The notes below the pieces were generated by a model that saw only the letters and a list, made by a program, of their open reading frames with translations, was not told the DNA's origin and searched no databases. Of a DNA stretch of 64,000 nucleotides, positions 16,201 to 57,867 are shown piece by piece. Location: NCBI GenBank assembly GCA_951406725.2, contig OX597843.1, forward strand, positions 14,942,001 through 15,006,000, written 5' to 3'. Origin of the DNA: Octopus vulgaris. Its lineage: Eukaryota. The translations under genes and the position numbers were made by a program. Position 1 is the first letter of the stretch. Each line of letters starts with the position of its first letter.

Positions 16201-16549
16201 CTTTAAATAAAGTATATATGTCCATATGCATATACTTATAGATACACATGTATATCTGTATTCATGTAGATGGGTGTGTATATATATATATATAACATAT
16301 ATATATATTTATACACACATATATACACAATTATATTATCATCATTTAACATGTTTTTTATACTGGCATGGATTGGATGGTTTGATACAAGCTGGCAAGC
16401 CAGAGGACTGTATCAATATCTATATGTGTGTGTGTGTATATATGTGTGTATGTGTGTATATATATAAACAATTGCAGCATGGAAGGTGTTTGTAAGCCAT
16501 TTAAGAAATACGCAAAAACCGTTAGATTCACTTCAACATTTAAGTTTAA

Positions 16550-16600
16550 TTTGTCAAAATATTTTCATCGCTTTGAGACTGCGACCTGTTCACTGACAAA
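16550..16600 (-). ncRNA. Minimal type I hammerhead ribozyme, G3-C8 core variant
   Basis: UUUGUCA-GUGAACA-G-GUCGC..GCGAU-GAAA-AUAU-UU-UGACAAA on the minus strand. Confidence 0.6.
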
Positions 16601-16644
16601 ATGAGGAAGGCCGGATTATGGGATTACCTTTGGCAGCACGAAGT

Positions 16645-16695
16645 TTTGTCAGTGAACAGGTCGCGGCCTCAAAGCGATGAAAATATTTTGACAAA
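16645..16695 (+). ncRNA. Minimal type I hammerhead ribozyme, G3-C8 core variant
   Basis: 7-bp stem I UUUGUCA/UGACAAA, core GUGAACA (16652-16658), stem II GUCGC/GCGAU, GAAA (16679-16682), palindromic stem III AAUAUU. Confidence 0.6.
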
Positions 16696-17310
16696 TTAAA
16701 TTTAAATGTTGAAGTGAATCGAACGGTTTTTGTGTGTTTCTTAAATGGCTTACAAACACCTTCCATGCTGCAACTGTTTTTGTTCCAGCACACGATCTCA
16801 GATTAAGTCACTTGCTATGCAAGTACATCTCCATAATATATATATATATATAAACATATATAAATAAGTTATCTCTGTTTACTTTTGAGATGTCTGTGGA
16901 GATGTTCACATATATGGCTATATATATATTTGTATATATACATCTATTATACATATATGATGTAATAGGACAGAAATGTCTATTTGAAATTTCATATTTT
17001 ACATCATTTAATTGTTGTTCTTCTTGTTGTTGTCATGGTGTCACATGACAAGACATTTTTATTTATCATTTTTTCATGTTGTTTTTATGGCACCTTTCTT
17101 GTTTCTGTTGAATATATATTTCTCATTGCACTGCTACTCTGCATTTTGTCATCATGTTGCACGTCACATGACAGCTCGTGTCTTGTCTGTGTGTCTGTGT
17201 ATATACATTTTATAATCATTCAACAGTTGTTTTCCATGCTGACATGGGTTGGCCAGTTTGATCGGGGCTGGCAGCGCAAGAAGACCACACCAGGCGCCTT
17301 TGTTTTCATA

Positions 17311-17646
17311 TGGTTTCTATGACTGGATACCCTTCCTAATGCCAGCCACTTTCCAGAGTGGACTGGCTATGTTATTCATGGCACCAGCACCAATGAGGTC
17401 TGCTTTGGCATGGTTTCTATGACTGGATGCCCTTCCTAATGCCAGCCACTTTCCAGAGTGGACTGGCTATGTTATTCATGGCACCAGCACCAATGAGGTC
17501 TGCTTTGGCATGGTTTCTATGACTGGATGCCCTTCCTAATGCCAGCCACTTTCCAGAGTGGACTGGCTATGTTATTCATGGCACCAGCACCAATGAGGTC
17601 TGCTTTGGCATGGTTTCTATGACTGGATGCCCTTCCTAATGCCAAC
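17311..17646. repeat. Minisatellite, 100-bp unit, about 3.4 copies (SINE-derived)
   Basis: tggtttctatgactgga recurs at 17311, 17411, 17511 and 17611. Confidence 0.9.
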
Positions 17647-19280
17647 CATTTTACAGAGAAGACAATATGTTATATGTATCTCTCTTTCTTTCTCTCCCTC
17701 TCTCTTTCTCTCTTTATATGTATATATATATTTTGAATAAATCAAGAAGTTCCTCACAAGTCAAATCAGATGAAAAGCAAAATTTTTGTGTATCCAACCA
17801 GTTTTACATTTTTGAAGATAATCATTGCTTTGTATTGGATGTTGTTGTTGTTGGTGATGGTGCTGGGATAAAGAGTGAATGTTGTTGACAAGACAAACAG
17901 TAAATGTAGTGGACATTTAACATTCTTGAAAAAATATTGGTGCAGATGTTATCATGAGGTGAAGAATCTCACTTTGCCACCATGTGGTTCCTGGTTTGAT
18001 CTCAGTGCATGTCATGTTAGGCATGTCTTTTACTATAACCCCAAGCCAACCTATGCCTTGTGAGTTGATTTGGCAGATGGAAACTGTGTGAAGCCTATTG
18101 TGTGTATCACCATCATCATCATCGTTGTTTAACATTCATGTTTCATACTGATCTGTGTTGGTCCTCTGCAGGATTTGAACTCAGTGTGCAAAGAGTGAGA
18201 ATCAATATTGCAAAGCATTGGCTGTCTGGTAAGAAGTCTGCTTCCCAATCAAATGGTTCCGAGTTCAGTTCCACTGCATGGTAACTTGGGCAAGTGTCTT
18301 CTACTCAGGTCAACCAAAGCCTTGTGAGTAGATTTGGTAAACAGAAACTGAAAGAAGCCCATTATATGTGTGTTTGCCCCCCCCCCCCCATCACTGCTTG
18401 ACAACCAGTGTTGGTTTGTTTACCTTCCTGTAACAGAAGTTGTTCAGCGAAAAGGCGGTGAGCTGGCAGAAACATTAGCACGCCGGGCGAGATGTGTAGC
18501 GGTATTTCGTCTGTCTGAATGTTCTGAGTTCAAAATCCGCCGAGGTTGACTTTGCCTTTCATCCTTTCTGGGTCGATTAAATAAGTACCAGTTGCGCACT
18601 GGAGTCGATATAATCGACTTAATCCCTTTGTCTGTCCTTGTTTGTCCCCTCTGTGTGTAGCCCCTTGTGGGGGAGTAAAGAAATAAGAAGTGGTTCAGCG
18701 AAAAGCACTGACAGAATAAGTACCAGGCTCACAAAAAATAAAGCAGTGGAGTCTAGACAGTGCTTCAGCATGGCCACAGTCAACTGCCTGAAGCAAGCAA
18801 AAGGTAAAAGATATATATATAGATAAATATATGGTGGAAACTGATCCTGGAACCACCAGGCTGGAAAGTAGGTATCTTGACCACACAGCAACTCCTGCAC
18901 CTCGTCCTGTTTGGATTTTGACCCAAGTTGGACGTTATCACTTTGGTTGTTGATGCTAACGGCAACACTGGCTGATGGTAGACGTCACCATCCTGCCATG
19001 GTACAACCCACCTTTTATCGTCCTCCAATAAAGCACCAGCAGAGAGAGACCTTCATAGCATTAGACATGCTTCTGTTTTCCCATTCTGTCTGCATTCTTC
19101 TGTCTCTCCGGAATACAGACTTTGAGGTTTCCCTTGATTCTGTTTGCACTCGAATTGGCATTGCTGCTTTCATGCTGACTTACTTGACCTCGGAAGCTTC
19201 AAATGTTTCTTTCATTTTCTCTCTCTGTCTCTCCTCTCCCCCCTCTCTCTCTGAAAGGGACTTAACAGATAGGATGACTT

Positions 19281-19722
19281 TGTAGCATAGATGCAGGTGA
19301 AATTCCTCTCTCCCATATATTCAATATACGTGCATTCGGACATAGCTGCTGCTGTGGTGGTGGAGGTTGTCTGGCATTGTCACTGAAACTGGCTGTGTCT
19401 TTGTGGTCAGTGGCTAGACCTTAGAAGGTCTGGAACCTAAGACCTCGGAAGGAGGAATAGCTGAGTTTTTACAAGTAGCTGTAGACTTAAAACAGGGTGG
19501 TAAACAGGTTGCCCCTTGTGATCCTATTTAGGGACTCCGGCTAGTTATACGTGACAATTGGCACAGTTGAGTAAGAGACAAATTGCCCCAATATCAATCA
19601 ATCAGAGTAATGGACACAACAGGATCCAAATAGCGGCCAAAGGCTAGCTGTTCCCTGCTACGTTCAAATGCGTGTATATATAATAAACGGAAGTGAGGAA
19701 TTTCAACCGAGTCTACGCTACA
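19281..19722 (+). mobile_element. Solo LTR (442 bp), probably Ty3/Gypsy-type
   Basis: Termini TGTAGCATAGA...TCTACGCTACA (10/11 inverted match, TG..CA). 4-bp TSD ACTT at 19277-19280 and 19723-19726. AATAAA at 19682. Confidence 0.7.
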
Positions 19723-20154
19723 ACTTCATTCAAGACCCTTAGACAACACTAGTAGTAGTAGTAGTTGCAACAGCAGCAAGAGTCTAAAGTTTTTGAAGGT
19801 ATTGTTTTGTGTGTGGGGGGATTTCAATCAGTACCACATGTGCCATGATGTAACCCATCTCATGTGATTCTCATGTAATTTTCGACATCTTTAAATTTTA
19901 TTTCTCTCTGCTTTGGATATTTCCCATTAAGGTAACTCATATTTCTATCCTATTTTTATTTTATTTATATTATTTCATTCTAAACCTGACATTTTTGTTT
20001 GTAATGAAAAACTGAAAAAGCTCCATTTGTTGTGTCTTTCCAAATAAATTTACAATTTTTCCCTCTTGCCTCATCCATCTTCAAACATCTCTTCATCTCC
20101 AACATTTTATGGAGTCCCTTTTCTACTTTTGCTTCCTGTGTTTCTTTGCTGCAG

Positions 20155-20391
20155 GTGAACAGTCCCAAAGTTTGGCGTAGCTTTGATGCAGATTCTTCCA
20201 CCCGGCCGCCATTGTTTAAGACTCGTAGCAGTTCCATGCCAACCCCAGGCTCAAAGAAGTTAGACAGCTCCAAGTCCGGCTTGAACTTGCCGCGCAGCGG
20301 ACGTGGATCGGTGTCGAATGAAAACAACGTGTTGCTAGATCCTGAAGTGCTGACAGGTTACGATACGCAAGTCCTCGTACTCACTGTCTTG
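20155..20391 (+). CDS. NF1: Neurofibromin coding exon
   Basis: ttctttgctgcag|GTG ... TTG|gtaagt; 237 nt, phase 0-0. VNSPKVWRSFD...GSVSNENNVLLDPEVLTGYDTQVLVLTVL matches NF1 VSVSESNVLLDEEVLTDPKIQALLLTVL. Confidence 0.95.
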
Positions 20392-20629
20392 GTAAGTACT
20401 CACATCAGTGGTTCTCGACCTCTTTTTTTTTTTTTTACCTATGGACTGCTTTGATTCCTATTTTACTTGGCTGGACCCTCATGCCCATTCCTTGATTAAC
20501 CCTTTAGCATTTAAACTAGCCATATTTGGCCCCAAATTTTCTGTTAGATCTAGCTTCTTGCACCTATCTGATGTTATCATTGTAAGAGTATGCAGTCCCA
20601 TCGTTGAAGCAGGATTAATTCCTAAGAAG

Positions 20630-21055
20630 ACCCGGCAGGACTAGTGAGACCATAACCTGTGGCCTCTACCTGGGATGTAGCCAGTCCACTTATGCATACC
20701 TTTCCTTCTTAGGACACAAAACTCCACTTGTGAAGACCCGTTGAGGCAAGTGGAAATCAGAAATCAGAGCCAAAATCGAAGTCGATCAACATGAATGGAA
20801 ATTGCAGCTGTGATACCAGTGCCAGTGGCACGTAAGCAGACCATCCATCTGTGGCCGTTTGCCAGCCCCGTCTGGCACGTAAAAAGCATCCACTACGCTC
20901 ACGGAGTGGTTAGCGTTAGGAAGGGCATCCAGCTGTAGAAACATTGCCAGATCAGACTGGGCCTGGTGTAGCCTTCTGGCTTCCCAGACTCCAGTTGAAC
21001 CATCCAACCCATGCTAGCATGGAAAGCGGATGCTAAATGATGATGATGATGATGA
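20630..21055 (+). mobile_element. SINE-like family 3 with (GAT)n tail
   Basis: ...GGAGTGGTTAGCGTTAGGAAGGGCATCCAGCTG...CCATGCTAGCATGGAAAGCGGA...GATGATGAT. Copies at about 26068(-), 26440(+), 29103(-), 41750(+) and 59085(+). Confidence 0.75.
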
Positions 21056-21669
21056 TATTATTTATTCACATTTTGTTTTCTCACTTTGCCTGCTAGCATT
21101 TGGAAGGGCACCCAGCCCCAGAAACTGTCCCCAAAACTGACAATGGGGCCTGGTGCAAAAATTAATTTGGCATAAAACAGCTTTGAATTAAATATATTTG
21201 TATAAAGTCATGTTTTTACATGAGTCTTGGTGGAGAATTTTCTCCCGGAACTCTTCTTGCAGTGAAAGATCTTATCACACCCTTCTTCCCACCTGACTCT
21301 AAGCTTAATCAATTCAGAGAGTATATTTATACGTATATGTGTGTGTGTATATATATATATATTGTTTTAGTCCTACTGATTACAGTCAAACATGTATGAA
21401 ATGTGACTTTACACAAATATATAATTATGTATGTCCATTTTCACACTGCTTTCTCATTCGCTGTCTGTCTGTCTTCCACCACCACCACACTTACACACAA
21501 ATGTAACTGAGCCATAAAAAAGTCAGCAGATATGACAGGTGAATATATTTATTTAATCATGTGTCATCCTTAGGGTTACAGTTGTTTCGCAACCTTCATC
21601 ATGTAATAATAATTTCAGTGTATAATAAATTGTTTACATGTTTGTGCTAATACCGCATGCTACGCATCA

Positions 21670-21978
21670 TCTTTATATATAAAACTGAAGTTGTGTGTGT
21701 GAGAGTCTGTCTACTCCGATTTAGATTCCTAACTACTCCCACATTTTGCGGTGCAGTTTAACCAACAGCGGGTATCTTATAGTCGTGATTCATATCAAGC
21801 CCTTCTCGGTATTAGCATGCGTCTACGATGAGTCTATGATTTTAAAAAAGATTTACCATCATTTTTTCGTTTTTTTTAATGCATTTTTGCTCGGTTTATA
21901 TAAGGGAAGTAACTCTCTAAAAATGCTTATATAGTTATTTCCCTTACAAACCCGAGCATCGCCAGGCGATACTGCTAG
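21670..21978 (+). mobile_element. Non-autonomous Helitron
   Basis: A|TCTTTATATATAAAAC ... CCCGAGCATCGCCAGG hairpin, GATACTGCTAG|T. Confidence 0.88.
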
Positions 21979-22289
21979 TACAATATAATTGTATATTTAC
22001 AAATCAGTGCAGATACAGACATCTAGCTAATCAGATCACCCAAACATCCTGGTTACACCAAATAAATCTATACCTCCTGACTTTTTATGGTTTATATTCT
22101 CCTCATGAAATAATCTCATCGATCAGATCTCCTGGATTCTAGCTGCATGGAACTCTACATTATACTCTTCTGTATTAGATTACTTTGTGGTCTGTTAGCC
22201 AAATCCGCTGGAGGAGCTTTCTGTGATAGCTACATGATTTTATGAATCCATGTATTAAACCACAAGTATACTGATCTCTTTTTCAACAG

Positions 22290-22390
22290 GCAACTTTGGT
22301 CCGTAACACAACAGATGAAAATGAAGCTCGAATATTGTACGAATATTTAGCGGAGGCGTCAGTTGTCTTTCCTCGTGTTTTTCCTGTGAT
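22290..22390 (+). CDS. NF1: Neurofibromin coding exon
   Basis: ctttttcaacag|GCA ... AT|gtaagt; 101 nt. ATLVRNTTDENEARILYEYLAEASVVFPRVFPV(I) vs NF1 ATLVKYTTDEFDQRILYEYLAEASVVFPKVFPVV. Confidence 0.97.
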
Positions 22391-22524
22391 GTAAGTAGAA
22401 ACCTCTTTCATTATCCGACCCCTATCTGTTTCACCCCCACCCCCACCCCATGCTACTCAGCATTTCTGTGTTTGTAGGGGACGGAGTCATGAAGGCATTC
22501 AAATCGTGTGTGGATTTATTGTCA

Positions 22525-22913
22525 GGCGCAGGAGTGGCTGTGTGGTAAGTAGCTTGCTAACCAACCACATGGTTCCGGGTTCAGTCCCACTGCGTAGCAC
22601 TTTGGGAAAGTGTCTTCTACTATAGCCTCGGGCTGACCAAAACCTTGTGAGTGGATTTGGTAAACGGAAACTGAAAGAAGCCTGTCGTATATATGTATGT
22701 GTATGTATATGTTTGTGTGTCTGTGTTTGTCCCCCTAGCATTGCTTGACAACTGATGCTGGTGTGTTTATGTCCCCGTCACTTAGCGGTTCGGCAAAAGA
22801 GACTGATAGAATAAGTACTGGGCTTACAAAGAATAAGTCCCGAGGTCGATTTACTCGACTAAAGGCGGTGCTCCAGCATGGCCGCAGTCAAATGACTGAA
22901 ACAAGTAAAAGAG
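22525..22913 (+). mobile_element. SINE family 1, full length
   Basis: GGCGCAGGAGTGGCTGTGTGG head through to GAAACAAGTAAAAGAG tail. Confidence 0.88.
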
Positions 22914-22949
22914 AATTCCTGACGAGAGAAATTCTCATTGAGACTCTTG

Positions 22950-23203
22950 AGTCTTACTTCAACCAATTCCTGATGGAGGCGCTTTCTGCTGCCTCCCTCA
23001 TCCTCTGCTCCGGTGCCACCCTTTGCTCTTTAGTCCAATGGTTGTAAGCATCCTCCATACCGAGTGGGCTGGGAATCCTCTCCTGCCATGACTGCCCCTG
23101 CCTTCTCCCTGCAATCCAGCAGAAGCTTCTCGTACTTGGTGGGTTTTTGTTTGTAGGGGCCTGGTCACACCCTTCTTCCCACACAACTCTAAGCGCAATC
23201 AAT
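22950..23203 (-). mobile_element. Degraded HERO-like retrotransposon endonuclease fragment
   Basis: Minus-strand frames give WEEGC, TKYEKLLLDCREK, RGFPAHSVWRMLTTIGL and EAAESAS..WLK, collinear with HERO-type RLE C-termini. A short paralog lies at about 21275-21313. Confidence 0.65.
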
Positions 23204-23769
23204 ATAGAGACTATATTTATACATTTGTGTGTGTGTAAATATGTATGTATGTACATATATATATCTATTGTTTCAGTCATTAGACTGTGGCCATGCTGGA
23301 GCACCACTTTGAAGAATTTTTAGTTGAATGTATCCACCCCAGTACTTTTTTTTTTATAAGCATTGTACTTATTCTATCGGTTTCTTTTTGCCGAACTGCT
23401 AAGTTACAGGGACATAAACACACCAGCACCAGTTGCCAAGCAGTGGGAGGGGGGACAAACACAGACACATACATACACAATGGGCTTCTTTCAGTTTCCA
23501 TCTACCAAATCCACTCACAAGGCTTTGGTCAGCCTGAGGCTACTGTAGTAGACACTTGCCCAAGGTGTCACGCAGTGGGACTAGACCCGGAACCATGTGG
23601 TTGGCAAGGAAGCTTCTTACCACACAGCTACGATATATATATATAGAGAGAGAGAGAGAAAAGAAAAGAAAAAGGGAGCAATAATAAGCAATGAGAAGTT
23701 GTAGTAGTAGTAGTAGTAGTAGTTGTAGTAGTAGCAGCAGCAGCAGGTCATAGTTTAATTGTACTTCAG

Positions 23770-23843
23770 AACCATTTACAGCTGTTTCTGTTTATCAAAT
23801 CGAAGTAAATTTGCATTTATCTTATTCCATCATCAGAATGATT
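23770..23843 (-). ncRNA. Type I hammerhead ribozyme A (diverged arm)
   Basis: AAUCAUU-CUGAUGA-UG...CA-GAAA-CAGCUG-UA-AAUGGUU on the minus strand. Confidence 0.7.
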
Positions 23844-24094
23844 TAGAAGAATATAAACAGAAGGAAAAGGAAAAAGTTTGTTAAGGCTTACATTTTAGTG
23901 ACTTTTTGGGTTCCACATGTGTGTTTGTTTCTTCAATTAGATGAATGGAGCAGTAAGTGGGGAAAATGACTAGTTGACCGGCAATGTTTGCCGAAGGAGT
24001 TATACCTGGTGGAGATATCCGGTGTTGGTAATTGTCAGATATAACGCTGTTAGTGACCGCTAGGTTAGTCCCCATGATGAAGTTAGATAAGGCC

Positions 24095-24167
24095 GGTTTA
24101 TGGGATTACCCTGGGTTTCACATCCATAAAGCTCTTAGCTTTACAGCACATCGTCAGATTCCAAACC
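24095..24167 (-). ncRNA. Type I hammerhead ribozyme B
   Basis: GGUUUGGAAU-CUGACGA-UGUG-CUGUAAAGCU aag AGCUUUAUGG-AUGU-GAAA-CCCAGGG-UA-AUCCCAUAAACC on the minus strand. Confidence 0.62.
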
Positions 24168-24287
24168 TGTTGGTTTATGGCTTCTTCAGCAAAAAGTCAA
24201 TAAAATGTAAGCCTAATGACTTAAACTTTTTCCTTTGCCATTTCCTTTTTCTTTCATTTCCCTTTTTCTCCTATTTATATTCTTCTA

Positions 24288-24361
24288 AATCATTCTGACG
24301 ATGGAACAAGATAAATGCAAATTTACTTCGATTTGATAAACAGAAACAGCTGTAAATGGTT
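24288..24361 (+). ncRNA. Type I hammerhead ribozyme A
   Basis: Stem I AAUCAUU/AAUGGUU (7 bp), CUGACGA 24295-24301, GAAA 24343-24346, palindromic stem III ACAGCUGU, GUA cleavage triplet (cut after 24354). Confidence 0.72.
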
Positions 24362-24780
24362 CTGAAGTACAATTAAACTATGACCTTTTAATACCAATGA
24401 TCAACTTCTCATTGTTTACTATTGCTCCATTTCTTTCCTTTCCTATATATATTAAACCACAGTTTTACCTTTAAATTACCTACTACGGTATACCTTATAG
24501 CTAGGACCATACATAGTGAGGTAATACACAAGGAGTGCCTATGGATGCATTTATCCCTTAGATGGTTGATAAGCATCGGAGGAAACTGCATCGGCATCCG
24601 TAGGCACTCCTTGTGTATTACCTCACTATGTATGGTCCTAGCTATAAGGTATACCGTAGTAGATAATTTAAAGGTAAAACTGTGGTTTAATATATATAGG
24701 AAAGGAAAGAAATGGAGCAATAGTAAACAATGAGAAGTTGATCATTGGTATTAAAAGGTCATAGCTTAATTGTACTTCAG

Positions 24781-24854
24781 AACCATTTACAGCTGTTTCT
24801 GTTTATCAAATCGAAGTAAATTTGCATTTATCTTGTTCCATCGTCAGAATGATT
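24781..24854 (-). ncRNA. Type I hammerhead ribozyme A (mirror copy)
   Basis: Reverse complement of 24288-24361. Confidence 0.72.
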
Positions 24855-24974
24855 TAGAAGAATATAAATAGGAGAAAAAGGGAAATGAAAGAAAAAGGAA
24901 ATGGCAAAGGAAAAAGTTTAAGTCATTAGGCTTACATTTTATTGACTTTTTGCTGAAGAAGCCATAAACCAACA

Positions 24975-25045
24975 GGTTTGGAATCTGACGATGTGCTGTA
25001 AAGCTAAGAGCTTTATGGATGTGAAACCCAGGGTAATCCCATAAA
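24975..25045 (+). ncRNA. Type I hammerhead ribozyme B (mirror copy)
   Basis: CUGACGA 24985-24991, 10-bp hairpin in stem II, GAAA 25023-25026, CCCAGGG, GUA triplet (cut after 25035), stem I UGGAAU/AUCCCA with one A-C mismatch. Confidence 0.62.
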
Positions 25046-25142
25046 GTTATAGTTTTCAGTTGAAACAATTAGCTGTCCTCTGATTGGGGTTGTTTGATGT
25101 TTCCCTTGGCTAATTCTCTGATCTTTTCTCGTTCCCTTGCAG

Positions 25143-25282
25143 ACATAGTCTCCTTGATGCCAAAATCAATTCGGTGTTATCGTTAAGCCAAGACCAGGCC
25201 ATCCTCAACGCCGTACAAAGCATCATCCAAAATATGATTGCCTGCGAGGACTCATCCCAGCAGCAGCTGTCGTTTCTCCAGA
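25143..25282 (+). CDS. NF1: Neurofibromin coding exon
   Basis: gttcccttgcag|A ... CAG A|gtatgt; 140 nt. HSLLDAKINSVLSLSQDQAILNAVQSIIQNMIACEDSSQQQLSFLQ vs NF1 HNLLDSKINTLLSLCQDPNLLNPIHGIVQSVV...YLQ. Confidence 0.96.
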
Positions 25283-30585: not shown

Positions 30586-30619
<34 letters not shown>

Positions 30620-31325: not shown

Positions 31326-31362
<37 letters not shown>

Positions 31363-46200: not shown

Positions 46201-47209
46201 ACACACACACATATATGTGTCTGTTTATGTGTATGTGTGTGTATATATGTATATATATATATATGTATGTGAGAAAAATATATACAATACTTCTAGTCAT
46301 ATTCATTTGTACCTTGCCTACCTGCATTCACACACACACACACACGTGTAGTCACACATCTGTACATGCATGCACACACAATCCTATTTAGGTAGTCATA
46401 TGTATTTATATATATATATACACACACATACATAAACGTACATATACATACATACAAGCATACATGCATATATATATATATATATGCCTGTATGTTTGTC
46501 TGTGCATGTGTAAGCTGTGTTGCACACCCCTGTACACCCATATCCCTGCACTTGTTTCTTATCCTTTTTCTCCCCTGTTTCCTACGCCTCCATCCCTGCC
46601 CCCCCCCCTCCCTCACAACCTGTCTTCGTGTTGTGGAAGTCAATGTGATGGTTGTTCAGTCTGCTAGAAACAGCAGCCAAATCTCCCTTATATCACACTC
46701 TGCCATATTAAAAAGCAAAGGGGTGGTGCAGGCGCATTGAATTGCGTAGTCCTTGATGCACTATGACAGGAAGAAAATGGCAACAGCAATAAGGGCCTCT
46801 TTATGTATCTACGGCTACATTATTGAATGTGTCCTCTTGTTGTTTAGCCCTAGGTCAGTTCTGTTCTAGCAGAACTGTGATCAGAGACACACCAACATTG
46901 ACCATCTTGCCTTGGTGTATCTAAGCTTACATCCCAGTGTATCCAACCAATTTCTAAACCATGAGGTGTTATTTAATGGAGATTTGGCTGCTATTTCTAG
47001 CTGATTAACTTTCCATGTAGAGGCTTCTTCACTGACTCATTAGTATTTGACTTGCTAGAAATAGCAGCCAGACCTCCCTCAAATTACACCTTACTGTCTT
47101 AGGATAAGAATGAAAGTATTGGATAATATGCTATGTCCCGTGGCAGGATGGTTGTTGCTGGATCAGCCTTGATCAGCCTTGGGCTAAACAACAACAGCAC
47201 GCAATAGAC

Positions 47210-47985
47210 ATTGTTTGGCCCTAGGTCAGTCCTGATCCAGTAGACCTATGATCAAAGATGACCAACCTAATTTTTATTCTGGCATAGTGTATCTAGGACT
47301 ACAATTATCTAATGTGTCGTTGTTTAGCCCCAGGTCAGTCCTGATCCAGTAGACCTATGATCAAAGATGTTCCAGCTGTGACCATCCTGTCTTTTATTCT
47401 GGCATAGTGTATCTAGGACTACATTATCAAATGTGTCCTTCTTTGTCATTGTTGTTTAGCCCTAGGTCAGTCCTGATCCAGCAAACCTATGATCAAAGAT
47501 GTTCCAGTGGTGACCATCCTGCCTTTCATTCTGGCATAGTGTATTTAGGACTACATTATCAAATGTGTCCTTGTTTTTTAGCCCTAGGTCAATCCTGATC
47601 CAGTAGACCTAAGATCAAAGATGTTCCACCTGTGACCATCCCGTCTTTTATTCTGGCATAGTGTATCTAGGACTACAATTATCTAATGTGTCCTTGTTGT
47701 TTAGCCCTAGGTTAGTCCTGATCCAGTAGACCTATGATCAAAGATATTCCAGTGGTGATCATCCTATCTTTAATTCAAGCATAGTGTATCTAGGACTACA
47801 ATTATCTAATGTGTCTTGCATCATTGCTGTTGTTGTTTAGCCCAGGGTCATTCTTGATCAGGCAGTCCACATTCAGCAGATCAAAGATGACCGGGCTATT
47901 TTTTATTGAGACATGGTGTATCTTGGACTCCATCATTTAATGTGTCCTCATTGTTTAACTCCAGGCTAGCCCTGATCAAGCACAC
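47210..47985. repeat. Minisatellite, ~110-130-bp unit, about 6 copies (related units at 44500-44870)
   Basis: gtttagccctaggtcagtcctgatccagtagacctatgatcaaagatgttcc...tagtgtatctaggactaca repeated head to tail. Confidence 0.88.
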
Positions 47986-48952
47986 AGACTTACCTGAAGG
48001 TGGGTGGAATCAATCTATTGTATATCCTTCCTTTTGTGTGGAGAGATTTGGCTTCTGTTTTTAGCATGTTAAATAACCATATAAAGATTCTGTCATTTGG
48101 TAGGGGGCACTTCTCCAGCATGCAAAGCTAAATAAAGGGGTTATTTAAGGGGACAGCGGAACAATTGTGGAGTCTTTATTTAACTGGTTCATTGCAATCA
48201 AAGGCCTTTCCAACCATGACTTGCACTACATTTTCTTACATGTCCTTTATTTTTAAGATTTGGAATAGATTTGGCTGATGTTTCTAGCACATTGAACAAG
48301 CAGTTAGAGGTTACTCACATAGCTTTGGTTGTGTGTGTGTGTGTGACAGTGGTGATGGGAAGGGGTATATACTATGGATACAGTAATGGTGATGATGATG
48401 AGGGAAGTGGTGGGTATGATGGTATGCCACTGATGGTTGTTGTCATTCAGCCATGATCCAGCTGACCTATAATCAAAACCACTCCAGCCATGACTATCCA
48501 GCCTTTTACCTACATGCAGGTTATCCAGGACTATATTAACAAGTGTCCTTAGTTCTAAGATATCAGGATGTGATTTGAGGGAGATTTGGCTGCTATTTCT
48601 TCCATGTCTGACTACCATGTAGAGGTCTCTCTCTAATTAGCTCATACATAAGACTGTAGGGTGTGATTTGAGGGAGATTTGGCTGCTATTTCTACAAGTC
48701 TCACAATGGCCTTCTTTCTGTTATCAGCTCAAAATAAACTTTGTTGTTGTCAGTGTTCACTTCCTCCCCCCCCCCACCCATTTCATTGTTGATCAGCCCT
48801 GTAATGAAAGATGTTCCAGCTGTGACCATCACCTATTGTGCTTTTATACATCATTTAAGTCATACAGTTCTATATTTAAGAGATGAGGAATTATGTACGA
48901 TATTTACATTATTTACAATAGACGGATATTTGTCCTCGTCTTGTTTGTTGTT

Positions 48953-49002
48953 AACACAATGTTTCGGCTGATATACCTACCCTCCAGCCATCATCAGGTG
49001 TC
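48953..49002 (-). ncRNA. Minimal hammerhead ribozyme C (mirror copy, stem III mismatch)
   Basis: GACAC-CUGAUGA-U-GGCUG..CAGCC-GAAA-C-AUU-GUGUU on the minus strand. Confidence 0.5.
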
Positions 49003-49043
49003 TTGGGGAAATTTTGAACAACCCAGGTTCAAAATTTCCCCAA

Positions 49044-49089
49044 GACACCTGATGAAGGCTGGAAGGTATATCAGCCGAAACGTTGTGTT
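49044..49089 (+). ncRNA. Minimal type I hammerhead ribozyme C
   Basis: GACAC-CUGAUGA(49049-49055)-A-GGCUG gaagguauau CAGCC-GAAA-C-GUU-GUGUU. The loopless palindromic stem III (ACGU) implies a dimeric form. Lies in fold-back 48905-49136. Confidence 0.7.
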
Positions 49090-52029
49090 AACAACAAACA
49101 AGAAGAGGCCAAATATCCATCAAATGTAAATAATGTTCATTTAAGTCATTAGAGATTGGTTTCAGGGTAATTTTACTGTTATTTCTAGCAGGTCCACTGA
49201 ATCTGCAGAACCTCTCTTGTTGATCTCTGACACCATCACAGTACACGGAAGGGGAGGGTGCAGCAATACACTTTCTCCTTTCCATCCTTCCCTCTCCTCA
49301 AATCCAACCCCAATCTGAGACATGGCCGTGTGGTTAAGAGGTTTGTTTCACAACCACTTGGTTCCAGGTTCAATCCCATTGTGTGACACCTCAGGCAAGT
49401 GTCTTCTATAGCTTTGAACTGACCAATCATTATTTGATGTCCATTTCCTATACTGGTATGGGTTGGATGGTTATATATATATTGCCATATTTCATTCCAT
49501 AACAGTTACCTCTGGTGAGCGCAAGGTTACATAATCAGATTGTTATCTAACACTCCGTTGAACCTGGTGCGAAACCGATTGGCAAGATCAGCCGTAATGG
49601 ATATATATAATATTGAACACTTTGATCTGTGTGTATGGTTGTTTAGTCCACATAACTCTGTAAGGAATTTAAGGCTCGTTTCCCAGTTTCTCTGTCAAAT
49701 ATATTCTTCCAGGGATGAGCTCCAGTCCATCGCAGCAGTATGTACATCTGCCGGCTGAGTGGACTGTTGCAACATGAAATGAAGTGTTTTGCTCAAGAAC
49801 ACAATGCATTGCCCAGTGCAGGAATTGAAACCACAATCTCACGATCATGAGTCCAACACCCTATCCACTAAACCATGCACCTCCACACACACATGTGTCA
49901 TTTAATGTGCTTTATATTGATGCTGGCAATGGGGGTTGGATGGTTTTACATGAACAGACAATCCAGAGGGCTGCCCTAGGTTCTAATATTGGTGTTGGCA
50001 TGGTTCTTATAGCTGGATGCCCTTCTTAATGCCCACCACTCCTCAGAGTGCCCTGGGTGCTTTTCTTAAGAGAATCCAGCACAGGCAATACACACACACA
50101 TACATCTGTGTGTGTGTTTATATTTCTTCCCCTCACCATTGGTGTTGGTTCATTTACGTCCATGTAACTTAGCAGTTAGGCAAGAGAGATCAAAAAAATA
50201 AGGAGCAAACTTCTAAATAAGTGTTAGGATTTATCTGTTCAACCAAAATGGCTGCCCCAGCATGGCCACAGTTCAATGACTGAAACAAGTAGAGAACAAA
50301 AGTCAAAGAGACAACAAAAGGCAGGGTGGTCATGTCTGGAGTCTGTTTGATCAATCATAGGTTGTGTTTGCTCCATCAGCACTAACCTAGGGTTAAATGA
50401 CTATTGTCTTTGTCCTCCTCACCCTCCTCCCATATTTGAAAAAGGATTAGATAATGTAGAAGGGATGTTGTCCCTTTTTCTGTCAGCTTGGCCCCTGTTT
50501 TCATTAAGGGACTATAAATGTCTAATGCATAAGGGATTATCCTCTTTCCTGACTCCCTGACCCTTTATATAACTAATGTATGCAGCGGTTGTCCTTTTTC
50601 CTGTCACTCCAGCCCCTATCTTTCATTAAGAGTTTATATGTAACTATTATATATGGGGATTGTCCCCTTTTCTGTCAGCTTGGCCCCTATCTGTCATTAA
50701 GGGCCTAATGTATGAGGAGATTGTCTCCTGTTGTTCTGACCCTTATTTTTTCATTAAGGCATGGCACCAATGTTTTCTTTGCACATTTTTTTCTTTTTCT
50801 TCCTATTTTTTCTTTATTTTTTAATAACATTCAATTTTTTATTTATTTTTTTGCACTGATTTATTTTTCTTGTTTTCCTTGTTTTTTTTTTTCTGCTTTT
50901 GATTTCTGACTTGAAATAATCTGAATTACTGGTGTGTGTGTGTAAAATGAGAGAGCAGGAGGGAGGGCCATATGTGGAGAGTCATGATTGCTATCAAGGA
51001 CTGATTTAGAGATAGAGTAAAACTCCCACAAAATTTAGAAATTTCCCTGGGGTTGGGGAAGGACCAAATGCTCCACCCCACCCCAAACCCCAACCCATTG
51101 CTGTATCCATCCACTAAAAACCTTTATGTCTTTTACTAGCTTCGGTCGTTGATCTGTGGCCATGCTGGGGCAATGCCTTGCAGTTGTTTTAGTCAAACAA
51201 ACTGACCCCAGAACTTACGGTTTTTTTTTTTGTGTTTTGGCTTTTTCTTTTCTTTTAACAAATTCTGGTTCTTCTGTTGCTCCCTTGCCGAACCCCTGAG
51301 TTACAGGAATGTAAACAAACCAACACTGGTTGTCATGTTCAGGTGGTGGTGGTGGTGGTGGGAGTAACAAACACACACACGCATACAGACATATGCGCAG
51401 ATACACACACATTCCCATACACCAGGCTTCCACACAGTTTCCATCTACCAAATTCACTCAGACAGCATCACATGCACTAAACAAGGGCACACACACACAC
51501 GCGCACACACACACACACACATGTATACACACATGCGCACACATCCATATACACAGACATATATTTATATATATGTGACAGGCTTCCTCTCAGTTTCCAT
51601 CTATGAAATTCCCTCACAAGGCATTGGTCAGTTTGGGGCTATAGTAGAAGACCCTGGCCCAAGGTGCTGTGCTGTGGGCCTGAACCCAAATCTACATGGC
51701 TGCCAGGCAAGGCTGTTCACTACACAGCTATATGTCTACATGTGTATTCGTGAATCTGGAGGAAGGGGATTGCAGGGGGTCGGTGTTTGCGGGGAAGAAG
51801 GACTGGTCATTGCAGTGGGAAAATGAGCAATTTGATAGGAGTTTAGATACGATGAAGAGGATGAGAGGTGAACAGGTTTAAGGAGATAAGGGTGGCTAAG
51901 TGGAAGGGGTCAAGTGTATTTGGTAGGATTAGGAACTCACATTGTAAATAGCCGATAAAATGTATCGCAAAATCCTGTCTCTAGTGTTCTAATGTGTGTG
52001 TATGTGTTTTCATATATATATATATATAT

Positions 52030-52108
<79 letters not shown>

Positions 52109-53426
52109 TATATATATATAACGGGAAGGTTTACGAAAATAAACAAAAGATGAAGGCAGGTGGAGTACAAACAAACAATGTATTAGTATGGCGCTCAGGA
52201 ATAGAAATAGAACAAGTCTTTTACGTTTCGAGCCTACGCTCTTTGACAGAAAGATACACAGAAAAAAAACAAGGAGACAAAAAAAAAATGCGTGTAGGAG
52301 CTAACAGTCTATCATGGCGTTCTGATTTCAGGCAGAAGTCAGAGGTCATATATATATATATATCACGTGATCACTGTGACCGACCAGGCTATCAGATGTT
52401 GCTACACATCGCTGGTCACAATGCTCTTCACATTGTTTTAGCCTTCAAATGACGCCACCCTTCTGGCTAAGCGAGCAGGCCAATATATATATATATATAT
52501 AAACCTCTGTATCATCTCACCTATTTTCACCCCCACCCACTGTCCCATCACATCTGGCCATCATTTCCCTCACTATTGCTCTCCTTTCTTTTTTCCAGCC
52601 GGGGTACCCATTTATCTGCTTGGCAGTAAGACCCCTATCTCTGTCCTTCCATAGGTCAATTAGCACCAGACCATTGCACCCCCCCCCCTCTTTCATGATC
52701 AAGGGCTTTTGTCTTGCAAGGTACTTGGTGACTCTTTCGGTGTCACTTAAAAGCCCCACCAGTACCAATCTGTGACCCGGTTGGTGTTAGGATGGGGATT
52801 CAGCTGTAGAAGCCATGCCAAAACAGGCGATGGAGCCTGGTATGACTCCCAGCCTTGCCCCTGCCTCTGGAACTGTCCAACCCATGCCAGCATGGAAAAT
52901 GGACAGTAAATGATGAGGATGATGATACGTAGATGCAGTCATGGCTGTGTGATTAAAGTCTGGAACTTTTCAGCACTCCCTCGTGTGTGTGTGTGTGTGT
53001 GTGTATATGTGTATATATAGGCGCAGGAGTGGCTGTGTGGTAAGTAGCTTGCTTACCAACCACATGGTTCCGGGTTCAGTCCCACTGCGTGGCACCTTGG
53101 GCAAGTGTATTCTACTATAGCCTCGGGACGACCAAAGCCTTGTGAGTGGATTTGGTAGACGGAAACTGAAAGAAGCCCGTCATATATATGTATGTGTGTA
53201 TATGTTTGTGTGTCTGTGTTTGTCCCCCTAGCATTGCTTGACAACCGATGCTGGTGTGTTTATGTCCCCGTTACTTAGCGGTTTGACAAAAGAGACCGAT
53301 AGAATAAGTACTGGGCTTACAAAAGAATAAGTCCCGGGTCGATTTGCTCGATTAAAAGCGGTGCTCCAGCATGGTCGCAGTCAAATGACTGAAACATGTA
53401 AAAGAGAGAGAGAGAGAGTATAGCTA

Positions 53427-53495
<69 letters not shown>

Positions 53496-54159
53496 TTCAT
53501 TCAATTATGGTAATAGTTGAATGATATTCTTAAGGTCGCAATTTACTCACAAGCAGCATCTTTCAGAGCTTGTTACTAATTCAGTTCTTAACCATATTGA
53601 AAATTGTTATTAATGTCCCTAGCTACATTTTGGCATTAAAAAAATTTGAGATTTGATCCAGTAGAAAAAAAAAGTTTACATCAAAATTTGTAGCAACATT
53701 ATAGGAGAGTAAGTAATACCACCAGTCATGTTAAGATCTAAATAACTTTTACCTAAAAAGCAAAATAATTTATTTTAGCTTGAAGAATTTAATAGTTTTG
53801 GTTCCCTGCAACAAAAATTTGTATCAAAAATTTTGTGAGGTAAAATATGAAAAAAAATATAAGGCAAGAAATTGGATTTAAGTATAATTAACTTTTTTTA
53901 TTTTAAAAACAAATTATATTTTAATTAAGCTTAAATGATAGAGCTCAATTCAAGGAATTTCATGGTATCAATCTCATGCAATGAAGTTTTAAAAGAAAAA
54001 AATTATGAGTCTGTTGCCTGAGGGAAAAGATACTCTGAGTAACAACCAACAATGGACTAAGTTTTAAACCTCCCCACTTAACCCTTTTGAATGCCCTCTT
54101 TTTCTCCTTTTTTCACTTCAGTGCAATTCATGCCAGTGTTCAACTGAATTGTGTCTCCT

Positions 54160-54235
54160 TATCCATCCATCCATCCAATTATCTATCTACCCACCCACCC
54201 ATCCATCCATTATCTATCTATTTATCTGTCCATCT

Positions 54236-54267
<32 letters not shown>

Positions 54268-54437
54268 CAGTTATCTATCTACATTATCTATCCATCTGTC
54301 CGTCCATCCATCCATCCATCCATCCATCCATCCATCCATCTATCTATCTATCTATCAGGCCATTTATCTGCCTGTCTGCCTCCTATCTATCTGTTTATTT
54401 GTTTGTTTGTCTATCTATCTATCTATCTATCTATCTA

Positions 54438-54469
<32 letters not shown>

Positions 54470-54470
54470 A
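54160..54470. repeat. Compound (CATC)n/(TATC)n/(TA)n microsatellite
   Basis: Read directly. Confidence 0.95.
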
Positions 54471-54779
54471 CGGGAAGGTTTACGAAAATAAACAAAAGAT
54501 GAAGGCAGGTGGAGTACATAACAAACAATGTATTAGTATGGCACTCAGGAATAGAAATAGAAAAAGTCTTTTACGTTTCAAGCCTACGCTCTTTGACAGA
54601 AAGATACACAGGTGCACGAGTGGCTGTGTGGTAAGTAGCTTGTTTACCAACCACATGGTTCCAGGTTCAGTCCCACTGCGTGGCACCTTGGGCAAGTGTC
54701 TTTTACTATAGCCTCAGGCCGACCAAAGCCTTGTGAGTGGATTTGGTAGACAGAAACTGAAAGAAGCCCTTCGTATATA

Positions 54780-54837
<58 letters not shown>

Positions 54838-55572
54838 CATTTGTGTGTCTGTGTTTGTCCCCCCAACATCACTTGACAACTGATGCTGGTGTGTTATGTC
54901 CCCATCACTTAGTGGTTCGGCAAAAGAGACCAATAGAATAAGTACTGGGCTTACAAAGAATAAGTCCCGGGGTCGAGTTGCTCGACTAAAGGCGGTACTC
55001 CAGCATGGCCGCAGTCAAATGACTGAAACATGTAAAAGAGTAAAAGAGAGAGAAAAAAAACAAGGAGAAAAAATTGCGTGTAGGAGCTAACGGTCCATCA
55101 TGATATATACATATATATATGTATGTATGTATATATATATATAGGTGCAGGTGTGGGTGTATGGTATGAAGCTTGCTCCCCAACCATATGGTTCCGGGTT
55201 CAGTCCCAATGTGGAACCTTGGGCAAATGTCTTCTGCTATAGCCTTGAGCCAAAGAAAGCGATGTGAGTGGATTTGGCAGACAATATAACTATGTATGTG
55301 TATGTATATATATATATATATGTATATCCGTGTGTGTGTATCTGTGTTTGTCCCCCACCATTGCTTGATAACTGGTGTTGGTGTGTTTATGTCCTTGTAA
55401 CTTAGCAGTTTGGCAAAAAGGACCAACAGAATAAGTTCTAGGCTTAAGAAAAAAATTAAACACTGGGGTCGATTCATTTGACTAAAACAAATTGTTCAAT
55501 GTGGTGCTCCAGCATGGCCACAGTGAAAGATAAAAGTAAAGGATATATATATATATATATATATATTTATGA

Positions 55573-55856
55573 CTAGCAGTATCGCTCGGGTTTGTAAGGG
55601 AAATAACTATATAAGCATTTTTAGAGAGTTACTTCCCTTATATAAACCGAGCAAAAAATGCGAAAAAATGATGGTAAATTTTTTTAAATCGTAGACTCAT
55701 CGTAGACGCGCACTAATACCCAGAAGGGCTTGATATGAATCACAACTTTAAGATACCCGCTTTTGGTTAAACTGCACCGCAAAATGTGGGAGTAGTTAGG
55801 AATCTAAATTGGAGGAGACAGACTCTCACACACACAACTTCAGTTTTATATAAAGA
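55573..55856 (-). mobile_element. Non-autonomous Helitron
   Basis: Close paralog of 3109-3392; TC...CTAG termini in an A|T site. Confidence 0.85.
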
Positions 55857-57394
55857 TTTTGTATTCATTTGTAGAATCATTAGGCTGTCAGACAAAATAC
55901 CTTGTGGTATTTGGTCTGCCTTTTTACTGTATTCTTTGTGGAAATCCCATTCAGGTTCCCCTGTGAAATGTAATCCTTATTTACGTTGTTTTGAATCAGT
56001 CCTGCAGCATCTCACAGCTTTGAAATTTTGATGACATCATTGGTTATTTTTAGAACGACATTGTAGGGCATGTGTAAGGAGCAGGATCTGGCCATTCTGA
56101 ATATAAAACAAGGAGAATATTTGCCCTGGATTATGTTTGGTTAAAATGCTTAAAGAGTGAGGTCAGTCCGACATTGTTCTTTACTTTGTGTTGGTAACTC
56201 TGGTCCACTTGTCCTTCTCTTGGACAGTATCAGTGGGCACCTGCTGGTCTTCCATACAACATGGCAAAGGGAGGTAACACTTCACTGTTAGCTCCCCTTG
56301 CTGTACTGACATTGACTGAAGTAAAATTTTCCAGCTGTCGTTACATATGTAATATCAAAGGATAAGAATTTCACTTGTCAACTACATTGCTCTGGATTCA
56401 GTCCTTAAGCAAGTCTCTTCTTTAACCATTGGCTGACCAGAATCTTAAAAGTAAATCTGGTAGGAGCAGGAGTGGCTGTGTGGTAAGAAGCTTGCTTCCC
56501 AACCACGTGCTTCCAGGTTCAGTCCCACTGTGTGGCACCTTGGGCAAGTGTCTTCTACTATCGCCTCGGGCCGACCAAAGCCTTATGAGTGGATTTGGTA
56601 AACGGAAACTGAAAGAAGCCCGTCGTGTATATATATTTATGTGTGTGTGCCTTTGTGTCTGTGTTTGTCTCCCACAACATTACTTGACAACCAATGTTGG
56701 TGTGTTTATGTCTCTGTAACTTAGCAGTTCAGCAAGAGACTGATAGAATAAGTACTAGGCTTGTAAAGAATAAGTCCTGGTGTTGATTTCTTCGACTATA
56801 TTTGGTGCTCCAGCATGGCCACAGTCATATGACTGAAACCAGTAAAGGAGTAAAACTAGAAGTCTAGTTTGTGCATGAGGTTGAAGTTTACATTTTGATC
56901 ACATGGTTATGGGTTCAGTCCCACCCTGCAGTACGTAGGGGCCTGTGTCTTTTACCAAAGCAGTATGAAGCAGATTTAATGGAAATTGACAAAAGCCCAC
57001 TCTGTGTGTGTGTGTGTCTCTTATGTTTACTTGCATCTACAATCGCTTCTATGAAAGGGCAGAGGGCTGCATTGGTGTCACTTTCTCATAGCTAGAGATG
57101 GTCCGTTGTGTGCAATGGGTGATGCCTTAATTAAAGAACAGGTGAGGAAAGTTCGCATAATAATAATAATTAGGTGTAAACACATGAACAAAATAAAAAT
57201 AAACAAAAACAAATTGCACGAACGTATATAAACAGGAGATACAAATATTACAGGCATCCCCCCCTCACACAACTAAATAAACATAGACGCACATAGAGAT
57301 ATAAGCATGCGCAAATGAAGACACATACAATAGAAATACAAAATGGCTGACAGTTAGTAAGGAGAGACACACAAATAAGAAAGAAGAAAACAAA

Positions 57395-57439
57395 GGACCA
57401 CTGATGAGGTCACAGGAGTCTGATGAAAGAACTCTGGCC
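57395..57439 (+). ncRNA. Minimal type I hammerhead ribozyme D, copy 1
   Basis: CCA-CUGAUGA(57401-57407)-G-GUCA..UGAU-GAAA-GAAC-UC-UGG; predicted cut after 57434. Confidence 0.6.
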
Positions 57440-57661
57440 GAAATAAGATTAAGATTAATGTAAAAAATAAATAACACTGAAGCAAAGTAACACCAAATAT
57501 ATAGTGCGTGTGTTTTTATTGGCTAAATTGGCAAAATGACCATTCCTAAATACAACAAAAACTTAGACACATACTTGTACATTAATCTTCATCTTATTTC
57601 GGCCAGTGTTCTTTTGTCACACTCCTGTGACCGCATCAGAAATAAGAAAGAAGAAAGCAAA

Positions 57662-57706
57662 GGACCACTGATGAGGCCACAGGAGTGTGACGAAAGAACT
57701 CTGGCT
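57662..57706 (+). ncRNA. Minimal type I hammerhead ribozyme D, copy 2
   Basis: CCA-CUGAUGA-G-GCCACA ggag UGUGAC-GAAA-GAAC-UC-UGG; predicted cut after 57701. Confidence 0.6.
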
Positions 57707-57867
57707 GAAATAAGATTAAGATTAATGTAAAAAATAAATAACGCTGAAAAATTAATAACACCAAATATATAGTGCGTGTGTTTTTATTGGCTAAATTGGC
57801 AAAATGACCTTTCCGAAATACAACAATATCTGTTTCAACACACGATTTCACATCAAAAATCTTGCAA

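What the first reader, a model, noticed from the sequence alone, without database searches (positions are those of the whole stretch)
16466..57830. Window-wide system: NF1 introns carry multiple self-masking hammerhead fold-backs
At least 11 recognisable HHR folds from 5 unrelated sequence families (16.6, 24A, 24B, 49 and 57 kb) plus 4 degenerate families (16.1, 30.9, 43.9 and 52/54 kb) lie mostly in inverted pairs next to (TA)n. Established: Penelope-like elements carry minimal, dimer-dependent HHRs in their pLTRs and often insert with inverted pLTRs. Seen: six folds are on the NF1 sense strand, and five of them have an antisense copy upstream that is transcribed first. Inference: the duplex masks the ribozyme, letting an essential gene tolerate it, while A-to-I editing or helicases could unmask it and act as an intron-cleavage switch.
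Basis: partly seen in the sequence, partly recalled or inferred. Interest (0 to 1): 0.7.

Follow-up and report, generated by a model that had tools for sequence, protein, structure and literature searches.

The report
Penelope hammerhead stumps in octopus NF1
Introns of the octopus NF1 gene hold back-to-back stumps of five common jumping-gene families, each carrying a small hammerhead-shaped RNA motif; the mirror copies are predicted to hide the motifs, but this layout is the elements' usual insertion footprint across the genome and is likely not a switch built for this gene.

Summary
The folds are real. Four families trace to Penelope-like ORFs. 'Antisense transcribed first' is geometry: head-to-head pairs read antisense-first on both strands. 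In 143 genome-wide loci, 57 have an upstream inverted copy and 1 a downstream one, the published Penelope footprint. In 1.18 Mb of other gene bodies, unpaired copies are 16 sense versus 17 antisense, so unmasked sense copies are not purged in bulk, though power for intact copies is low. Masking is predicted in silico, but such ribozymes are reported inactive as monomers. No cleavage or editing data. The scan found this Penelope layout before on other DNA. Side leads: a G3:C8-core family of very high copy number, and a tRNA-like head in the 49-kb family's 3' UTR, where most short copies begin.

The parts
1045..63777 (+). 3' part of octopus NF1 (six exons, stop at 63777); all HHRs are in its introns
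   Evidence: tblastn of P0001/P0002, splice sites; one RNA-type contig holds exons 20148-20390 and 25143-25286 in order
16466..16602 (-). F16 inverted copy without tail, intact G3:C8 fold antisense to NF1
   Evidence: arms 95% identical
16603..16632 (-). junction filler that includes about 22 nt resembling the 24B family's 3' tail
   Evidence: read by eye
16633..16815 (+). F16 main copy with tail; sense HHR, core GUGAACA (G3:C8), palindromic helix III, H17 16688; about 200-nt element, no ORF found upstream in 29 loci
23657..24078 (-). 24A element end, 5'-truncated, antisense HHR at 23836-23777
24080..24182 (-). 24B element end with tail, antisense HHR
24190..24572 (+). 24A element end; sense HHR, H17 24354, atypically long helix II; left arm of the 452-bp inverted repeat
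24594..24950 (-). 24A inverted duplicate (99%), antisense HHR 24847-24788
24960..25046 (+). 24B inverted copy without tail; sense HHR, H17 25035, 108 nt before the 3' splice site at 25142/25143
48862..49019 (-). F49 main copy with tail, antisense HHR with broken helix III palindrome
49020..49140 (+). F49 inverted copy without tail; sense HHR, H17 49084, helix III palindrome AACGUU
57157..57560 (+). F57 first copy; sense HHR, H17 57434; no upstream antisense copy
57575..57639 (-). 65-nt core-dead F57 fragment; could pair with either sense copy
57640..57870 (+). F57 second copy with tail, then (TA)25; sense HHR, H17 57701; with the first copy the only same-strand tandem pair in the window
16095..16215 (.). 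16.1 head-to-head pair, both cores incomplete
30700..30995 (.). 30.9 head-to-head pair; sense copy has a U3:A8 core at 30859 and palindromic helix III
43646..43975 (.). 43.9 head-to-head pair, C3 lost in both copies
21521..21621 (-). solo antisense copy of the 43.9 family
52120..52262 (-). solo antisense D52 copy, altered core
54470..54611 (-). solo antisense D52 copy, altered core

Best explanation
These are 5'-truncated 3' ends of Penelope-like retroelements and their non-coding derivatives, inserted in octopus NF1 introns in the elements' usual head-to-head layout, and the host likely tolerates them because such minimal hammerheads are likely near-silent as single copies, with the predicted fold-back as a passive extra rather than a switch. 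Shown: the folds, the family memberships, ORF linkage for four families, the head-to-head default, the tail on one arm only, and no strand bias among unpaired copies in other genes. Inferred: Penelope RT/endonuclease copied the 3' end of an element RNA and added an inverted truncated copy at its 5' side. That geometry puts the antisense arm first whichever strand is transcribed. In the pre-mRNA the arms are predicted to pair and be removed with the intron. Only the 57-kb tandem (57434 + 57701) could form the cis dimer that these ribozymes are reported to need.
For: Upstream inverted copy in 16 of 29 (F49), 13 of 29 (F16), 10 of 29 (F57), 9 of 28 (24A), 9 of 28 (24B) loci; downstream in 1 of 143. 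Penelope-type ORFs run into the HHR region: F57 (L087/L088, GIY-YIG E 0.0025 below cut-off; RT-domain protein hit; contiguity), 24A (L107, L118, L120), 24B (L170), F49 (11 of 12 ORF-end loci continue into the family UTR; PF00078 relatives). Unpaired copies in 1,181,600 bases of myosin and kinesin gene bodies: 16 sense, 17 antisense; 24 copies in head-to-head pairs, 2 in tail-to-tail. Unmasked sense folds exist in other genes, e.g. F57 in the C5 kinesin. The 57-kb triple recurs beyond the NF1 stop. Literature: opposite-strand dual min-HHRs 100-700 bp apart and no monomer cleavage (PMC4209133); head-to-head most frequent (PMC3846280); inverted 5'-truncated copy and one-sided tail (PMC8557442); no RNA-seq ends at the HHR site in anole (PMC11167929).
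Against: The window is extreme. All five main insertions have a partner covering the fold, against 40 of 143 loci genome-wide: P about 0.001-0.002 if neutral, 0.009-0.016 under a masking filter. Events are 8 paired, 3 solo antisense, 0 solo sense, against 12/17/16 in other genes (Fisher paired versus solo p=0.011). Intact solo copies elsewhere lean antisense, 5 sense versus 9 (p=0.42; ratio CI 0.15-1.85), so a twofold depletion is not excluded. F16 was not tied to an ORF. No activity was measured.
Confidence: 0.8

Rival explanations
1. Passive filter: unmasked, catalytically intact sense copies do harm long pre-mRNAs and are purged, so self-masked or antisense copies are what remain in introns. 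No regulation is involved.
For: Window has 0 solo sense, 3 solo antisense, 8 paired events; likelihood ratio about 10 for the five main families; intact solo copies 5 sense versus 9 antisense elsewhere; retrozymes are under-represented in Xenopus introns (bioRxiv 10.64898/2026.07.22.740005, passages, no strand analysis seen).
Against: All solo copies 16 versus 17; without D52 12 versus 10; strict motif 2 versus 3. The window was picked because it showed the pattern. The filter predicts about six unmasked antisense copies of the five families and there are none. Two NF1 sense folds have only a later partner (57434; a U3:A8 fold 9 kb upstream of the window).
Confidence: 0.16
2. Regulated switch: A-to-I editing or helicases open the duplexes, the ribozymes cut the intron and tune NF1 output.
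For: Long duplexes are predicted (452 bp at 99%); heavy editing in coleoid cephalopods is recalled knowledge; intronic ribozyme control has a precedent in CPEB3 (PMC10919898, search listing only).
Against: Unmasking gives a monomer, reported inactive (PMC4209133); editing would also hit core adenosines (inference); the G3:C8 core is only partly active as an engineered double mutant (PMC11167929); arms are 89-99% alike with no sign of core-specific conservation; same layout outside the gene.
Confidence: 0.03

Closest known systems
Minimal type-I HHRs of metazoan Penelope-like elements (Cervera and de la Pena 2014, PMC4209133; parts 1-2 of 4 read)
   Same: Short helix I, extra base between A9 and 10.1, palindromic or tiny helix III, many families per genome, mostly truncated copies, pairs on opposite strands 100-700 bp apart, U3:A8 variants.
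   Different: Octopus and a natural G3:C8 family are not mentioned in the parts read; 24A has an unusually long helix II.
EN+ PLE insertions with inverted pLTR and tail (Arkhipova et al. 2013, PMC3846280; Craig et al. 2021, PMC8557442; passages)
   Same: Inverted 5'-truncated copy at the 5' end, head-to-head order, tail on one arm, (TA)n bias, complex tandem/inverted mosaics.
   Different: Here only stumps, no ORF in the window; target-site duplications were not examined.
Metazoan non-LTR retrozymes (PMC7229834; bioRxiv 10.64898/2026.07.22.740005; passages)
   Same: Non-coding type-I HHR repeats derived from or related to PLE ends; F16 is a short non-coding high-copy unit.
   Different: Copies here are solo or inverted, not tandem arrays (1 of 29 F16 loci has a direct repeat); circular RNA not tested.
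Schistosoma SINE-like HHR elements (Sm-alpha type; review PMC6765202, passages)
   Same: Pol III-type promoter followed by a hammerhead, as in full F49 units elsewhere in the genome.
   Different: In F49 the tRNA-like head sits in the 3' UTR of an ORF-bearing Penelope element, and copies are solo or inverted; the window's own copies lack the head.
Domesticated intronic ribozymes (amniote HH9/HH10, CPEB3; PMC6765202 passage, names partly recalled)
   Same: Ribozyme in an intron of a host gene.
   Different: Those are single-copy and deeply conserved; these belong to repeat families with 863-2090 first-look candidates each.

Membership tests
Type-I minimal hammerhead ribozyme | Core boxes with 3-8 pair, GAAA, UH, helices I and II | tested here: met
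   3-8 pair covaries across families (C:G, G:C, U:A); G3:C8 in 26 of 29 F16 loci
Type-I minimal hammerhead ribozyme | Palindromic or 1-2 bp helix III suited to dimers | tested here: met
   AAUAUU (16.6), ACAGCUGU (24A), AACGUU (49); 24B 4 bp with a 1-nt loop; 57 2 bp with an AA loop
Type-I minimal hammerhead ribozyme | Self-cleavage | not testable with these tools
   no bench data; only contigs available, which cannot show ends
Type-I minimal hammerhead ribozyme | Match to Rfam hammerhead models | tested here: not met
   none among the 150 of 158 matches shown at E<=1; the models fit canonical forms
EN+ Penelope-like element end (pLTR) | HHR region contiguous with an RT + C-terminal GIY-YIG ORF in other copies | tested here: met
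   F57, 24A, 24B, F49; GIY-YIG Pfam score below cut-off
EN+ Penelope-like element end (pLTR) | Same linkage for F16 | tested here: inconclusive
   no ORF or shared sequence upstream in 29 loci
EN+ Penelope-like element end (pLTR) | Inverted 5'-truncated copy at the 5' end | tested here: met
   57 upstream versus 1 downstream in 143 loci
EN+ Penelope-like element end (pLTR) | 3' tail on one arm only | tested here: met
   16.6, 24B, 49 and 57 in the window
EN+ Penelope-like element end (pLTR) | Microsatellite target bias | tested here: met
   72% of 87 non-window copies within 250 nt of (TA)5 versus 32% random; window 11 of 21
EN+ Penelope-like element end (pLTR) | Target-site duplication | not tested
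   not examined
Non-LTR retrozyme | Tandem arrays with an HHR per unit | tested here: not met
   same-direction neighbours in 1 of 29 F16, 1 of 29 F49 and 5 of 29 F57 loci
Domesticated regulatory intronic ribozyme | Single copy, conserved at an orthologous site | tested here: not met
   repeat families; conservation in distant cephalopods not tested
Masking-dependent tolerance | Depletion of unpaired sense copies in introns | tested here: inconclusive
   16 versus 17 for all copies; 5 versus 9 for intact ones, CI 0.15-1.85
tRNA-derived SINE (F49 full unit) | A and B boxes with 5' ends at the head | tested here: met
   A+B boxes in 14 of 29 loci at <=1 mismatch each (box consensus recalled); 21 of the 22 loci that reach the head stop at -102 to -134
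tRNA-derived SINE (F49 full unit) | Detectable tRNA homology | tested here: not met
   ARAGORN 0 of 14 loci; no Rfam tRNA hit in 2 of 2 loci

The most novel reading that the evidence does not exclude
The inverted arm that Penelope elements add on insertion works as a built-in silencer of their own ribozyme. Intact unmasked sense copies are purged from introns of essential genes such as NF1, self-masked ones pile up, and in heavily editing cephalopods the one dimer-competent pair here (57434 + 57701, sharing a single 65-nt mask) can be opened and cut the last intron.
Probability: 0.12. Interest if true: 0.65.

Novelty: new member of a known kind. Interest (0 to 1): 0.27.

Why it matters
As it stands this is a dense example of a published footprint, useful mainly as a warning: antisense-first order in head-to-head pairs says nothing about selection. 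It does leave a cheap, open test, the strand bias of intact unpaired hammerheads in introns, which I did not find done in the papers read. A positive result would show that these weak ribozymes cut host pre-mRNA in vivo, which is still unproven. The side leads may be worth more: a very abundant natural G3:C8 family (searches gave only engineered examples) and a Penelope 3' UTR with a tRNA-like head that seems to spawn SINE-like copies (no description found).

Tried and rejected
First descriptor found nothing because it demanded a helix III loop; replaced. Rfam gave only miRNA-like hairpin noise. RNA evidence: no RNA holder listed for 23700-25300; only contigs were available, so cleavage ends and editing could not be read; differences in the RNA-type run were A>G 16 versus T>C 18 and dominated by paralogous repeats. 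The second read-laying was aimed at the wrong part of L140 and is uninformative. The 5' part of NF1 (residues 1-1470 of P0002) was not found in the 200 kb upstream or with two genome searches (one more gave no answer), so the upstream 190 kb is of unknown gene status and was kept out of the strand test. In that test 4 single-copy seeds and low-complexity hits were dropped before counting (208 rows to 108); the 'intact' regex is lax and passes some damaged copies; the library was seeded from this window, so window densities (11 events per 64 kb versus 2.4 in other genes and 6.7 next door) are biased upward. Two further kinesin genes could not be added to the sample. tRNA identity of the F49 head could not be assigned. 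Pfam did not recognise 5 of 6 PLE fragments. Lunse et al. (PMC5785218) was not held; only its title was seen. No supplements were read; those of PMC4209133 and PMC3088659 may list G3:C8 or cephalopod examples. Rejected: chance motifs (null); viroid-like or circular RNA system (no arrays); conserved regulatory ribozyme (repeat families).
Full report
Host and setting. The window is G000:C30:14942001-15006000 of a 2.8-Gb genome. An exon matches Octopus vulgaris and O. bimaculoides neurofibromin at 98%. tblastn and splice sites place six NF1 exons on the + strand, ending with the stop at 63777. All hammerheads are intronic. One RNA-type contig holds two exons that flank the 24-kb intron in order, so spliced message across that intron is present in that run.

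The observation. Rfam shows no hammerhead among the 150 of 158 matches listed. A type-I descriptor that allows a loop-less helix III and one extra base after A9 finds 7 exact CUGANGA folds against a mean of 0.6 in 20 shuffles. Adding the 3-8 variants and homology gives the eleven folds claimed. The 16.6 family has a G3:C8 core in 26 of 29 loci. Other families in the genome use U3:A8, and the '30.9' sense copy reads as such a fold. Covariation of the 3-8 pair across unrelated families argues that the folds were selected in the elements.

What they are. Each family is a genome-wide repeat: 2090, 1696, 863, 1873 and 1104 first-look candidates, lower bounds. Summed contig depth over the 16.6 element is about 30,000 times that of a neighbouring exon in run X18 (a rough figure, not a copy number). 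Four families run upstream into Penelope-type ORFs. F57: L087/L088 align over the ORF end and UTR at 91-95%, with a CxxC linker, a weak GIY-YIG hit and an RT-domain relative. 24A: L107, L118, L120 and others share 0.9-1.4 kb upstream. 24B: L170. F49: 11 of 12 loci chosen by the ORF end continue into the family UTR, and relatives carry PF00078. F16 is a unit of about 200 nt with no ORF in 29 loci. In the window the tail sits on one arm only, as described for PLEs (PMC8557442, passages). The 24-kb block is a mosaic: 24A(-), 24B(-, tail), 24A(+), 24A(-), 24B(+), with a 452-bp repeat at 99%.

The order of the arms. In a head-to-head pair the antisense arm comes first on both strands, so the order cannot show adaptation to NF1 transcription. 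Among 143 top-scoring loci, 57 have an upstream inverted copy and 1 a downstream one (three pairs of loci are two views of one place). The single exception, L062, is a 93% duplicate of the window's 57-kb triple 19 kb past the NF1 stop. Opposite-strand pairs 100-700 bp apart are reported in PMC4209133 (parts 1-2 of 4), and head-to-head is called the most frequent arrangement in PMC3846280 (passages).

Strand test. I oriented 1,181,600 bases from 17 myosin and kinesin gene bodies by their exon hits and searched them with 19 seed families. After dropping low-complexity hits and 4 single-copy seeds, 58 copies remained. Unpaired copies were 16 sense and 17 antisense (ratio CI 0.45-1.98); 24 copies were in head-to-head and 2 in tail-to-tail pairs. 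Intact unpaired copies were 5 versus 9 by a lax pattern (p=0.42) and 2 versus 3 by strict ones. A control SINE gave 122 versus 105. So unmasked sense copies are not purged in bulk, but a twofold loss of intact ones is not excluded. NF1 itself has two sense folds whose partner is transcribed later: 57434, and a U3:A8 fold in the intron 9 kb upstream of the window with a partial partner 1.6 kb downstream.

Results against my reading. The window is unusual. It has 8 paired, 3 solo antisense and 0 solo sense events, against 12, 17 and 16 in the gene sample (Fisher p=0.011). The partner covers at least half of the fold in 40 of 143 loci genome-wide but in all five window insertions: P 0.001-0.002 if neutral, 0.009-0.016 with a masking filter. 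The window was chosen for this pattern, 24A and 24B are not independent, and 237 of 453 scan notes in this genome fit a look-up for 'hammerhead', so selection among windows weakens the figure without removing it. Folding does predict masking: mean pairing of fold bases outside the fold is 0.97-1.00 for 16.6, 24A, 24B and 49, and 0.80 for the 57 copies.

How it most likely works. Shown: Penelope-type ends inserted with an inverted truncated copy. Inferred: the arms pair in the pre-mRNA and leave with the intron. Tolerance needs no mask, since a single min-HHR showed no detectable cleavage and dimers were weak (PMC4209133), and no RNA-seq ends were seen at the anole site (PMC11167929, part 1 of 4 and passages). 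Opening a duplex would free a monomer. The exception is the 57-kb tandem: two sense folds 267 nt apart with one dead 65-nt antisense fragment between them. It is the only place where a cis dimer could form and the best site to test. No cleavage or editing data were available.

Novelty. The layout is published, and this scan noted it before in this genome and in sharks and fish. I score it a new member of a known kind. I found no strand-resolved intron test in the papers read; a 2026 preprint reports fewer retrozymes in Xenopus introns, with no orientation analysis in the passages seen.

Side lead. Full F49 units start with a tRNA-like head with A and B boxes (14 of 29 loci by pattern; box consensus recalled), then (AAT)n, the HHR and the tail. 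The head is part of the 3' UTR of the ORF-bearing element, yet 21 of the 22 HHR-selected loci that reach it stop at -102 to -134. This fits Pol III transcripts mobilised by the parent, or RT stalling at the 12-nt palindrome there. ARAGORN and Rfam do not call it a tRNA. The nearest precedent is the Schistosoma SINE-like elements (PMC6765202, passages). The window's own copies lack the head.

Noticed in passing
L002, L006, L008-L010, L013, L017, L028, L293-L304 (F49 family; window 48862-49140 lacks this part): A tRNA-like head with A/B boxes lies about 20 nt after the stop of a Penelope-type ORF; 21 of 22 copies that reach it begin there. Candidate SINE born inside a PLE 3' UTR. No such note in the scan index.
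   Followed up: partly
window 16633-16815; L032-L060: F16: about 200-nt non-coding element of very high copy number with a natural G3:C8 core (26 of 29 loci); only engineered G3:C8 found in two paper searches.
   Followed up: partly
window 30859-30905; gene sample (myoC15, myoC9, myoC18, kinC5b): Several U3:A8 hammerhead families, often in head-to-head pairs; the 30.9-kb sense copy is a seventh sense candidate.
   Followed up: partly
window 52120-52262, 54470-54611: D52 family is the commonest in the samples (25 copies), nearly always solo, and most copies have U at core position 6.
   Followed up: no
window 16603-16632: Junction between the F16 arms holds about 22 nt like the 24B family tail, suggesting a template jump between different elements.
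   Followed up: no
window 24097-25045: The 452-bp, 99% hairpin ends 97 nt before a 3' splice site; a likely strong editing substrate that could affect branch-point use.
   Followed up: no
G000:C30:15024242-15024918 (L062, L306): 93% duplicate of the whole 57-kb triple 25 kb away, beyond the NF1 stop; here the first fold has A9C.
   Followed up: yes
G000:C30:14742001-14932700 (L121-L139): NF1 residues 1-1470 were not found in the 190 kb upstream or with two genome searches; very long intron or split assembly.
   Followed up: partly
window 9057, 13599, 22538, 36455, 53033 and others: About 22 copies of a 390-nt SINE-like repeat on both strands (15 sense, 7 antisense), forming many long-range inverted pairs.
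   Followed up: no
window 7262-7438, 3380-3482, 53394-53455: Further fold-backs around (TA)n with no hammerhead core found by my descriptors.
   Followed up: no
window 59809-60519 (-), 62326-62712, 38823-42862: LINE-type RT fragments in the last NF1 intron.
   Followed up: no
window 2268-2884, 17310-17658, 47272-47948, 12597-13212: Tandem arrays of 107, 100 and 123 nt built from repeat pieces, and a 600-nt (TCT)n tract.
   Followed up: no
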